NCBI RefSeq assembly: GCF_055900595.2
Contig: NZ_CM148325.1
Length of the DNA: 64,000 nucleotides
Direction: 5' to 3' (one strand)
Below, piece by piece: positions 21,656-24,600 of the stretch. The first letter of the stretch is position 1, and the number at the start of each line of letters is the position of its first letter. A program made the position numbers.

Positions 21656-24600
21656 TAACTCGGTGGCCAGTTTTTGTTGACCACTTCATATCTGTAAGAC
21701 TCTCATAAAGAATGATTTCTGGTGCCGGACCCTCTCCTTCAGTCCTAACAAACCCCGGCACTATGAACGTTATCTGCAGCGTATGAAAGAAAGGAGGAAG
21801 GAATGGGGGATTCTGTGACAGCGGAGGTACTGAGTGACATGATTCGTCAGTACTTCAGCCAGGAACGACCAGAAGAAGAGACCATACAGGCTCTGAATCA
21901 TCTGCGCAGGGTGCTTCATGAGGTCAGTCCATTTGCACAGGAGCCTGTGGACTGTGTGCTGTGGGTGAAAGCAGATGAGGTGGTGGCCAATGATTATAAT
22001 CCTAATGTCATGGCGCCGGGTGAGAAAAAACTGCTGAAACATTCGCTGGAGCAGGACGGGTTCACGCAGCCTGTGGTTGTCTCGGAAGAGAAGGAGCATT
22101 ATCTGGTGGTGGATGGTTTTCATCGTCAGTTACTGGGCAGGGAAGCAGGTACGGGAAAACGTCTGAAGGGCTGGTTGCCAGTGACCTGTATTAATCCGGA
22201 GAGAAAGGGACAGGCCGCACGCATTGCCGCGACCATTCGACATAACCGGGCCAGGGGAAAACACCAGATAACTTCAATGTCTGATATTGTCAGGGATCTT
22301 TCACGTCTGGGCTGGACGGATGAACGCATTGGCATGGAGCTGGGTATGGACCAGGATGAAGTTCTCAGGTTGAAACAGATTAGCGGGCTGACGGAGCTGT
22401 TTCAGGAAGAGGATTTCAGCCCGGCATGGACGGTTCGCTGAGACTGTCAGATATGTGTATTATTTCAGTGAGTTGATGTTTTGAGCAGGAAAAATAGTAC
22501 CCCGGAAGTCGTGGAAGACATGGTTGCACAGACGCTGGAGGCGGCGGGTTGCTGGCGCAGAGCTTCTGCCCGCTGGCTTTTTGTTATGGGAAATGTTGAA
22601 TGTACAGAAGCACAACGGGAGTGGTTGTTGTTACGCAGGAATTATTGCCTGGCGCAGATATCGTCCCCGCCGCTACCTGAAAAGCTGGATATCAGCGAGG
22701 TGGCGAAAGCTGCAGATGCCACGCTGAGGCGAATGGGGATTGCCAGTCCGTCTGGGGAGGTATTCAGAAAAGGTACACTGGTCTGTTGATATTCAGGTAA
22801 CAGGTATTAATGATGAAGAAAGTAATGGTGGACAGCGTATCAGTGCCATGGCAGCTTTTGTGCGATGAACATGGTTTTACCCGGGAGCACCACAATCAGT
22901 TGAAGAAGTTCAGCCCGGAGGCATTACGTGAAATTATTGCTGAAATAGCCTGCTGCCATCCATCAACCAGTGTATTGCTCAGGAATAAGTGGCTGACACC
23001 GCCGGAGGATATTCCGGAGCAGGTTACCCGTGAATACGAACGAAGAATACAGAACTGTCCATCGTTCAGGAGCGAGAAGGAAGCGGAATCCTGGTTAAAT
23101 GAACTGTTTTTTGCTGTGATTGCTCCGCTATACCGTGTTGCCCCCGAACAAACAGAACAGGTTGAGTCCTTTGTTCTGCAGCTTATTGCCGAGCAGGAGC
23201 GGGTTTGGGAGCTTATTTTAACCAATGATGGTTATTCATGGCATTGCGCACTTTATGATATATTATTTCATCTGGTTTTACGAAATATGGAAGACCAGCC
23301 TGAACATCAGAGACAGCGAATAACAAAAATACTTAATGAGTCCGATACAAAACGGGTTGCAGAAGAGATTAAATTTCGGATTCAATATCTTCAGGATGAA
23401 GAACAAAAAAGAGTTTTAAGTGAACTGGTAAATGTCCTGACTTCAAAAAGATAAAACATGCCGGAGTAATTTTTTCTATATGTTAATAAAATCGGTGCGT
23501 ATTACCATGAAGGAGATCGATGAGTAACCGTTATTGGATGATCTCCTTCCATAAAAATACGCGTAATCTAATGGTTCGCTCTGTACCAAAAGAAGACATT
23601 GTTCACAATATCGAGTTAATCATTCGATCGTTGAATATTTTCATTGAAAAATTTCTCAGTATAGAATATATCAATGTTGAGGGTATTCCTCTTACATCTC
23701 GAAGGATAACTATCATGGGTCTTAAACCTGGTCCAAAACCAATTGCTAAGTCGACAGGAAAACCGGATCAACGCCGACGCGATAATAAAGATACTCCTGG
23801 CAATACTCCGGGACTAAAGCCAAGTAAGTCCACAGGTAAGTAAAAAAATAAGGGTATAAATAAGCATTTATACCCTGACTATATATCCAGTCCACCGAAG
23901 GTGTTTCAGCAGCCAGATGCTCGTTCTTTCTATATCATACGCCTTTGCCCCGTACCCTTTCGCAAGCAAAGACTCTGGTAAATACTCGTCATATTTATCC
24001 AGATCCTTATCAGGAACAACTGTAGCAGGCTCAAATTCTGAAGGTGCAAAATGGCATCTGAATCGATCACGACTTGGCATGCTTCCGATCATTGATTGGC
24101 ATCCTGCCAATCGTATCGTTCCGGCAAACTCATATTGACGCATTTTTCAGGCGAGCCACTGGGAGCGCATACGAATGGGCGCCGTCTGACGATGGTTGAT
24201 TTATTTTGTTGTACAGGGGCGATCGCCAGGCAGGTGCCGGAGGCTGGCTCTGAAGTGCTGAGTCGGGTAATCGCGTCAGGCTGCGCAGTACTGACATGGG
24301 TACTGGTGGCAGGTGATGAAGTTCGACTCCGGAAATGCCGCCGGGTTGATTGCGTATTCCGCTCTATTCGATCACGGATTGGCCCCCTGTGTACGAACAT
24401 CTGACGGCAGGTGTTGCTCATACAGGGTAAATCCCTCAAGAGGCAACAACTTTGTCAGTCGCTACTCCGGCCACTCAGGCAGACGCGTCAGGATGTTCGT
24501 CAGCCCGGCATGTGACTCTAGGCCATTACGTTTTGCTGTATCCAGAAGACTCATTATCTGTGCTGCATGTTTTCCGTCCCATGATAACCCGATGGATGGC

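What the first reader, a model, noticed from the sequence alone, without database searches (positions are those of the whole stretch)
22481..23454. PerC-like activator followed by an unknown 214-aa protein
The small protein fits the PerC/Pch pattern (WRRA..RW..VM motif) of horizontally acquired virulence-gene activators. The downstream co-directional gene has no recognisable family and could be its target or partner.
Basis: inference. Interest (0 to 1): 0.3.

Follow-up and report, generated by a model that had tools for sequence, protein, structure and literature searches.

The report
PchD-type PerC with SpnT-like partner
A small PerC-family regulator (the E. coli PchD type, which does not switch on the classic virulence island) lies next to an uncharacterised helical protein that almost always travels with it and turns out to be a short relative of the SpnT/DUF6880 proteins; the result is a useful annotation, not a new kind of system.

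Summary
Both ORFs are real. The small one is a clear PerC-family protein (Pfam PF06069, E 2e-35). It is 94% identical to the PerC gene of the E. coli O157 tellurite/adherence island, which the literature calls pchD (ECs1388). Published work shows PchD does not activate ler/LEE.

In complete E. coli genomes, 1033 of 1037 copies of the 214-aa gene have this perC directly upstream. 969 carry the whole ibrA-ibrB-perC-214 block. A Yokenella MAG keeps the pair in reversed order with a 4-bp overlap and no ibrAB.

Most likely the two genes form a co-transcribed regulator-plus-adaptor pair at the end of the ibrAB operon, inside a defence island. Physical interaction is inferred only; a linker-fusion AlphaFold run was inconclusive. 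In this window ibrA is broken by an IS3-family element. Interest is modest.

The parts
19508..20438 (+). 5' part of ibrA (PAPS-reductase-like with DUF3440), first gene of the ibrA-ibrB-perC-214 block. It is cut by an insertion element.
   Evidence: Pfam PAPS_reduct E 4.8e-17 and DUF3440 E 6.9e-14. PHROG 2302 E 2e-74. Colinear with L001 ibrA up to position 20438.
20439..21688 (+). IS3-family insertion sequence (orfA 20475-20813, orfB 20840-21658) inside ibrA. 172 bp of ibrA are missing compared with the intact E. coli locus.
   Evidence: The ORF translations show a transposase HTH and a DDE integrase core. BLAST of the window against L001 breaks at 20438/21689, with L001 11818-11989 absent. An intact ibrA of 411 codons is annotated in L001.
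21689..21818 (+). 3' remnant of ibrA, overlapping the ibrB start.
   Evidence: Colinear with L001 11990-12119, the end of the annotated ibrA.
21803..22441 (+). ibrB (IbrB-like protein with a ParB N-terminal-like domain), 212 aa.
   Evidence: PHROG 2159 E 1.4e-82. Weak ParB_N hit, E 0.002. Annotated 'IbrB-like domain-containing protein' in E. coli homologues.
22481..22789 (+). PerC-family gene, orthologue of pchD (ECs1388). The start is TTG 22481 or GTG 22511 (102 or 92 aa). ATG 22520 is not conserved.
   Evidence: PF06069 at 121.2 bits, E 2.3e-35. 94% identical to the O157 island PerC. Same gene order as ECs1386-1389. Start-codon alignment.
22810..23454 (+). [not shown]
   Evidence: No direct family hit. 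HMMER finds DUF6880 proteins at E 6e-8. hhalign gives 98.9% probability, E 2e-17. AlphaFold pLDDT 77 with 11 helices. dN/dS 0.2-0.6. pI 5.5 and no transmembrane segment.
23520..23843 (+). Optional fifth gene: a 107-aa basic protein with a Pro/Lys/Gly-rich tail and an AAGGAG ribosome-binding site 7 nt upstream. It is not part of the conserved pair.
   Evidence: ORF and sequence. Annotated as hypothetical in L001 but replaced by IS remnants in O157. No family hit. pI 10.5.

Best explanation
The finding is the distal half of a horizontally acquired E. coli operon, ibrA-ibrB-pchD-ECs1389, sitting in a defence island between a T6SS cluster and a type I restriction-modification system.

Shown:
- The small gene encodes a true PerC-family protein of the PchD type (Pch group 2).
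- The 214-aa gene is a real, expressed, moderately fast-evolving gene.
- Its product is a cytoplasmic, acidic alpha-solenoid homologous to the N-terminal domain of SpnT/DUF6880.
- The two genes are 20 nt apart with no terminator between them.
- They are inherited together in about 99.6% of E. coli copies.
- The pair recurs, reordered and with overlapping stop and start codons, in Yokenella without ibrAB.

Inferred: the two proteins act as one unit. The solenoid would be a protein-protein adaptor that binds or gates the small PerC regulator. That would explain why PchD expressed alone shows no ler activation. Together they would tune transcription of horizontally acquired genes or a nucleoid-linked process, under the same promoter as ibrAB. 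The targets are unknown.

In this particular window the IS3-family insertion in ibrA probably alters or abolishes normal expression of the downstream genes.
For: - PerC identity.
- PchD orthology and synteny.
- Pair linkage: 1033 genomes cover at least 80% of the 974-bp perC+214 query, against 1037 genomes with the 214-aa gene.
- Four-gene block present in 969 genomes.
- Independent recurrence: in a Yokenella regensburgei MAG a 43%-identical solenoid gene is followed by a 58%-identical PerC gene with a 4-bp overlap and no ibrAB.
- Co-induction of the consecutive genes ibrB, perC and hyp3 by 2.4-7.6-fold in two STEC strains on two cell lines (PMC7649339).
- No terminator-like site between the genes.
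- Other family members also sit beside small regulators: a Crp-family regulator in Enterobacter, a RecX-like protein after DUF6880 in Shewanella, and SpnI/SpnR in TnTIR (the SpnI/SpnR case is from my own recollection of the TnTIR papers; one search confirms only that spnT lies in TnTIR).
- PchD alone has no effect on ler, and strong induction restricts growth (PMC5931665; PMC6265319).
Against: - There is no direct evidence of a PchD-solenoid complex. The AlphaFold run on a PerC-linker-solenoid fusion gave pTM 0.51, with the PerC C-terminus and the solenoid N-terminus at low confidence. That neither supports nor excludes binding.
- Several family members lack an adjacent PerC: E. coli P0028 directly after vasL, Serratia and Pantoea copies beside DUF2913, and one copy beside a ClpX-zinc-finger protein. 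The solenoid can therefore function without PerC.
- PchD-type PerC also occurs without the solenoid (L021).
- Close E. coli linkage may partly reflect recent common descent of one island module.
- The identification of 'hyp3' with this gene rests on gene order only.
Confidence: 0.45

Rival explanations
1. The 214-aa protein is a co-transcribed cargo or target gene with its own activity, not a PerC partner. It would act like SpnT on chromosome replication, the nucleoid or cell division, and PerC would merely share or drive its expression.
For: - Homology to the SpnT/DUF6880 N-terminal domain.
- SpnT overexpression in E. coli gives elongated cells and nucleoids and raised DNA content (Wei et al. 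2006, as summarised in PMC11064533).
- Family members occur without PerC.
- The AlphaFold fusion gives no confident complex.
Against: - Only the N-terminal third of SpnT is present. The C-terminal TPR-like part, which the Pfam DUF6880 model matches best, is missing.
- It is unknown which SpnT domain causes the phenotype.
- The PerC pairing recurs with translational coupling in a distant lineage.
Confidence: 0.27
2. ibrA, ibrB, perC and the 214-aa gene together form one conflict system, such as a DndB/DndC-like DNA-modification or phage-defence or counter-defence module. PerC and the solenoid would be its regulatory or sensing subunits.
For: - The four-gene block is conserved in 969 E. coli genomes.
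- IbrA has weak DndC and BrxP similarity (PADLOC E 1e-4 to 2e-7).
- The window locus is flanked by PD-Lambda-1, NERD+UvrD, an OLD nuclease and a type I R-M system.
- An ibrAB-perC block lies next to cas3 in strain GmM066.
- The Yokenella pair follows a PDC-S37 candidate defence helicase.
- DUF6880 genes lie beside type I R-M in Shewanella and Dickeya.
Against: - No PADLOC model matches IbrB, PerC or the solenoid.
- ibrAB is common without perC or the 214-aa gene (for example ST131), and the pair exists without ibrAB, so the four genes are separable.
- The only published IbrAB phenotype is activation of Eib expression (Sandt 2002, as cited in PMC7649339).
- Island co-location is only guilt by association.
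- ibrA is inactivated by an IS here while the rest stays intact.
Confidence: 0.18
3. A classical PerC/Pch virulence activator that switches on LEE/ler or other virulence-island promoters, with the downstream gene as an unrelated hitch-hiker.
For: - PerC family membership.
- ibrB, perC and hyp3 are induced on adherence to epithelial cells, and hyp3 is enriched in STEC and EAEC genomes (PMC7649339).
Against: - The orthologue PchD gave no ler activation, in contrast to PchA-C (PMC5931665). Its function is called elusive (PMC6265319).
- The window comes from a strain whose speC is 100% identical to that of Nissle 1917 and UPEC strains, and the 64-kb window shows no LEE.
- The module is widespread in non-LEE E. 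coli.
- The near-obligate linkage argues against a mere hitch-hiker.
Confidence: 0.08
4. The 214-aa ORF is a chance ORF or a decaying pseudogene.
For: It has no direct family hit, and the family is very small: 38 hits among 1.84 billion representative proteins.
Against: - Full-length conservation in over 1000 genomes.
- dN/dS well below 1 at dS up to 1.5.
- Homologues down to 28% identity with invariant K60-W61-L62-T63.
- A confident fold.
- Published transcription of the probable orthologue.
Confidence: 0.02

Closest known systems
PchD (ECs1388), the group 2 PerC homologue of E. coli O157:H7 Sakai, on SpLE1 / OI-43 and OI-48 (tellurite-resistance and adherence island)
   Same: 94% amino-acid identity. 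Same neighbours in the same order: ibrA (ECs1386), ibrB (ECs1387), pchD, ECs1389. PerC Pfam domain present.
   Different: The chromosomal site differs: here a defence island beside a T6SS cluster and type I R-M, in a strain whose speC is identical to that of Nissle 1917 and UPEC strains. ibrA is disrupted by an IS3-family element. An extra 107-aa ORF lies downstream.
PerC of EPEC and PchA/B/C of EHEC (activators of the LEE1/ler promoter)
   Same: Same Pfam family and the same N-terminal WRRA..RW..VM helical core.
   Different: The PchD group did not activate ler in published assays. PchA-C are prophage-borne. Only the PchD-type perC was found paired with the solenoid gene in the E. coli searches. 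Related perC copies at about 75% nucleotide identity lack it (for example hit H94).
SpnT / DUF6880 (PF21810), a protein of about 460 aa first described in the Serratia marcescens transposon TnTIR
   Same: Residues 23-208 of the 214-aa protein align with residues 5-190 of SpnT-family proteins (hhalign 98.9%, E 2e-17). Both are helical and cytoplasmic, lie on mobile elements and sit beside regulators or R-M systems.
   Different: The protein is less than half the length and lacks the C-terminal TPR-like region, where the Pfam model scores best. It does not reach the Pfam DUF6880 threshold (no hit at E<=1). No phenotype data exist for it.
IbrAB (immunoglobulin-binding regulator locus of E. coli ECOR-9)
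   Same: The pair lies directly downstream of ibrA and ibrB homologues and is co-induced with ibrB.
   Different: ibrAB often occurs without perC or the 214-aa gene. Here ibrA is interrupted. The role of perC and the 214-aa gene in IbrAB function has never been tested.

Membership tests
PerC family (Pfam PF06069) | Match to the family HMM above the curated gathering score over most of the model. | tested here: met
   121.2 bits against a 22.6 cut-off, E 2.3e-35, profile positions 2-88 of 90.
PerC family (Pfam PF06069) | Small protein (about 90-100 aa) with the conserved N-terminal W-R-R-A...R-W-L..V-M helical core. | tested here: met
   92-102 aa. CWRRASARWLFVMG is present and aligned with 16 other PerC proteins. 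AlphaFold predicts three helices over residues 1-48 at pLDDT 75-84.
PerC family (functional sense: activator of LEE1/ler) | Activates transcription from the ler promoter. | not testable with these tools
Published assays on the 94%-identical orthologue PchD show no activation (PMC5931665).
Pch group 2 (PchD orthologue) | High identity to ECs1388 and conserved synteny ibrA-ibrB-pchD-ECs1389. | tested here: met
   94% identity to the PerC of the O157 island that also carries cah. The gene order matches the ECs1382-1390 table in PMC1890555.
SpnT / DUF6880 (PF21810) | Match to the Pfam DUF6880 model above the gathering score. | tested here: not met
   No DUF6880 hit even at E<=1. The model scores mainly on the C-terminal half, which this protein lacks.
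SpnT / DUF6880 (PF21810) | Sequence homology to the N-terminal domain of bona fide DUF6880/SpnT proteins. | tested here: met
   hmmsearch E 6e-8, 8e-8 and 7e-6 to 459-464-aa DUF6880 proteins in a library of 1.84 billion sequences. hhalign 98.9%, E 2e-17 over 183 columns. One cluster is named SpnT by NCBI.
SpnT / DUF6880 (PF21810) | Full-length architecture of about 460 aa with a C-terminal TPR-like region. | tested here: not met
   The protein is 214 aa, and the alignment ends at SpnT residue ~190.
Known anti-phage defence systems (PADLOC-DB v2) | Match of the component proteins to a defence-system model. | tested here: not met
   No hit for PerC, the 214-aa protein or IbrB. IbrA has only weak BrxP and DndC hits.
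IbrAB operon | Intact ibrA and ibrB immediately upstream, co-directional. | tested here: inconclusive
   ibrB is intact (21803-22441). ibrA is split by an IS3-family element and has lost 172 bp. The block is intact in 969 other genomes.

The most novel reading that the evidence does not exclude
The PchD-type PerC and the SpnT-N-like solenoid would be the regulatory or sensing pair of an unrecognised conflict system built on IbrA/IbrB (a DndC/DndB-like PAPS-reductase plus ParB-like pair), resident in defence islands. More generally, stand-alone SpnT-N domains would be adaptors that gate small horizontally acquired regulators (PerC, Crp-like, RecX-like, LuxR-type).
Probability: 0.15. Interest if true: 0.6.

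Novelty: new variant of a known kind. Interest (0 to 1): 0.3.

Why it matters
PchD is present in about a fifth of complete E. coli genomes, yet its function has stayed 'elusive' because it was always tested alone.

Three results here give a concrete reason to retest PchD together with its neighbour:
- PchD is almost never inherited without a specific partner gene.
- That partner is a truncated relative of SpnT, a protein whose overexpression perturbs replication and cell division.
- The pair recurs independently of ibrAB.

If the pair proves to regulate or sense for the IbrAB module in defence islands, it would open a new candidate system. If not, this remains a useful but ordinary annotation refinement.

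Tried and rejected
- Direct HMM scans of the 214-aa protein against Pfam, NCBIfam, PADLOC and PHROGs gave nothing significant.
- tblastn against 50,697 phage records found no match. Plasmids gave only E. coli copies and a weak Shewanella DUF6880 hit, which became the lead.
- Foldseek against viral structures found nothing.
- PDB sequence searches found nothing for either protein.
- The AFDB library was unavailable.
- An AlphaFold run on a PerC-(GGGGS)6-solenoid fusion with a block alignment gave pTM 0.51, which is inconclusive. The tool returns no PAE or contacts. A first alignment for this run had misaligned N-termini and was discarded.
- The species-level genome scan found only a Pantoea copy and a mis-binned MAG contig.
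- Rfam, repeat, promoter and terminator scans of the region showed nothing above chance.
- A toxin-antitoxin reading was considered and dropped. The evidence is too thin: growth restriction by pchD was seen only at high induction and was also seen for pchB.

Full report
**Observation**

The + strand carries an ORF at 22481-22789 (102 aa from TTG) and another at 22810-23454 (214 aa), 20 nt apart. It hits Pfam PerC (PF06069) at 121.2 bits against a 22.6 cut-off, E 2.3e-35, over profile positions 2-88 of 90. It also hits PHROG PerC-like 'transcriptional activator' families.

Start codons need care. The ATG at 22520 that PGAP uses in some genomes is ATT or ACG in other loci. GTG 22511 and TTG 22481 are invariant. 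For the 214-aa gene, the second ATG (22813) is conserved in 6 of 6 loci.

**Source and setting**

The window is E. coli chromosome. Its speC is 100% identical to that of Nissle 1917 and UPEC strains.

The two genes end a co-directional block of ibrA (PAPS-reductase-like with DUF3440), ibrB (ParB_N-like), perC and the 214-aa gene, followed by a 107-aa ORF.

In this window ibrA is interrupted by an IS3-family element at 20439-21688, and 172 bp of ibrA are lost.

The surroundings form a defence island beside a T6SS cluster:
- PD-Lambda-1 (11709-12875)
- NERD+UvrD (13069-14856)
- vasL (15270-16643)
- an OLD-family nuclease (16785-18491)
- a type I R-M system, hsdRMS (24877-30774)

**Identity of the PerC gene**

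Published work reports the following:
- PchD, unlike PchA-C, does not activate a ler fusion (1,620 against 1,577 Miller units for the control).
- Strong induction of pchD restricts growth (PMC5931665).
- The function of PchD 'remained elusive' (PMC6265319).

**The 214-aa protein is real**

- It is present in 1056 of 5426 complete E. coli genomes, nearly always full length.
- Pairwise dN/dS is 0.20-0.59 over dS from 0.08 to 1.5. The PerC gene gives 0.11-0.27.
- AlphaFold gives an 11-helix all-alpha model (pLDDT 77, pTM 0.75) with a disordered N-terminal 11 residues.
- It is acidic (pI 5.5) with no membrane segment.

**What the 214-aa protein is related to**

Direct scans of Pfam, NCBIfam, PADLOC and PHROGs find nothing, and phage genomes have no copy.

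An exhaustive HMMER search of 1.84 billion representative proteins with a family profile found only 38 proteins. These include:
- homologues of about 195-200 aa in other Enterobacterales, later traced to Yokenella, Enterobacter and Serratia, with Pantoea found separately by a genome scan;
- the N-terminal ~150 residues of proteins of 459-464 aa (E 6e-8 to 7e-6).

The longer proteins are DUF6880 (PF21810). One cluster is named SpnT by NCBI. A profile-profile comparison aligns residues 23-208 with SpnT-family residues 5-190 at 98.9% probability, E 2e-17.

The protein is therefore a free-standing homologue of the SpnT/DUF6880 N-terminal domain. It lacks the C-terminal TPR-like part and does not itself pass the Pfam model.

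According to PMC11064533, SpnT of the Serratia transposon TnTIR causes elongated cells and nucleoids and raised DNA content when overexpressed in E. coli (Wei et al. 2006).

**Linkage**

A 974-bp query spanning perC and the 214-aa gene is at least 80% covered in 1033 genomes. 1037 genomes hold the 214-aa gene. In E. coli the pair is therefore essentially obligate from the solenoid's side.

The whole ibrA-ibrB-perC-214 block is at least 80% covered in 969 genomes. About 1200 further genomes match only part of the block:
- ST131 carries ibrAB alone.
- Strain GmM066 carries ibrAB-perC without the solenoid gene, next to cas3.

The key independent case is a Yokenella regensburgei MAG. There a 43%-identical solenoid gene is followed by a 58%-identical PerC gene that overlaps it by 4 bp. 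The pair is preceded by a PRiA4_ORF3 gene, has no ibrAB, and follows a PDC-S37 candidate defence helicase.

Counter-examples exist. A 56%-identical E. coli copy sits alone after vasL. Other copies sit beside different neighbours:
- Serratia and Pantoea copies follow DUF2913.
- One copy follows a ClpX-zinc-finger protein.
- The Enterobacter copy follows a Crp-family regulator and precedes an ion channel.
- In Shewanella a DUF6880 gene is followed, with a 4-bp overlap, by a RecX-like gene and lies beside type I R-M, as does the Dickeya copy.

**Mechanism**

I commit to the following reading, at confidence about 0.45. PchD and the solenoid are a co-transcribed functional pair. The solenoid acts as a protein-binding adaptor or gate for the small regulator, and the pair is expressed from the ibrAB operon.

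Shown: family identities, orthology, operon-like spacing with no terminator, co-inheritance, recurrence in a second lineage, and co-induction in the literature.

Inferred: physical binding, regulatory output and targets.

An AlphaFold run on a linker-fused PerC-solenoid with a block alignment gave pTM 0.51. The PerC N-terminal three helices were confident and the rest was not. This is inconclusive, because the tool returns no interface metrics.

Rival readings:
- An independent SpnT-like cargo acting on replication or the nucleoid (0.27).
- A four-gene IbrAB-based conflict or DNA-modification system with PerC and the solenoid as regulators (0.18). This is supported only by defence-island neighbourhoods and weak DndC/BrxP similarity of IbrA.
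- A classical LEE or virulence activator (0.08), contradicted by the published PchD assays.
- A spurious ORF (0.02).

**Novelty and verdict**

The PerC gene is already known as PchD. The neighbouring gene is a catalogued but uncharacterised hypothetical.

Three results appear not to have been described:
- the near-obligate PchD-solenoid pairing and its recurrence outside E. coli;
- the defence-island setting.

This is a new variant of known kinds, of modest interest (0.3). It gives a clear experimental suggestion: test PchD together with its partner.

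Noticed in passing
window 20439-21688: An IS3-family insertion sequence (orfA and orfB) splits ibrA, and 172 bp of ibrA are missing compared with the intact locus in E. 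coli 504239. The insertion may silence ibrB-perC-214 or drive them from an outward promoter.
   Followed up: partly
window 11709-18491 and 24877-30774: A defence island lies beside a T6SS cluster. It holds a PD-Lambda-1-like GIY-YIG/T5orf172 protein (11709-12875), a NERD+UvrD helicase (13069-14856), an OLD-family nuclease (16785-18491; L001 carries a different OLD-type gene at this spot) and a type I R-M system, hsdRMS.
   Followed up: partly
window 23520-23843: A 107-aa ORF with a strong AAGGAG ribosome-binding site. It is basic (pI 10.5), has a Pro/Lys/Gly-rich low-complexity tail and matches no family. It is present in E. coli 504239 but replaced by IS remnants in O157.
   Followed up: partly
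window 21700-24200 compared with 24200-32000: The ibrB-perC-214 segment is only about 95.7% identical to its best E. coli match. The whole 21689-32000 stretch, which includes the adjacent type I R-M, aligns at 98.9% to the same genome. This suggests mosaic recombination within the island.
   Followed up: no
window 22481-22520: The ATG that PGAP uses as the PerC start in some genomes is not conserved, whereas an upstream GTG and a TTG are invariant. PerC/PchD start sites are probably mis-annotated in many genomes; database entries of 89, 92 and 102 aa all exist.
   Followed up: yes
L002 5989-7688; L018 5001-11395: Full-length DUF6880/SpnT genes in a Shewanella baltica plasmid and in Dickeya lie next to type I R-M systems. 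In Shewanella the gene overlaps by 4 bp a small RecX-like three-helix-repeat gene, echoing the arrangement of solenoid plus small helical protein.
   Followed up: partly
L004 5374-5982, L008 2-508; L009 5173-5844, L017 4152-4601, L022 2110-2715: The solenoid family has two recurrent neighbours outside E. coli: PRiA4_ORF3-domain proteins (twice) and DUF2913 proteins (three times). Both are uncharacterised.
   Followed up: no
L014 5914-6194: In one metagenomic contig the perC between ibrB and the solenoid gene appears frameshifted, split across two frames. This is either a pseudogene or an assembly error.
   Followed up: no
window 18500-19500: A very AT-rich spacer (GC 29-33%) with strong positive GC skew lies between the OLD nuclease gene and ibrA. 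It contains only short ORFs and several promoter-like hexamer pairs, and may be the promoter region of the ibrAB operon.
   Followed up: no
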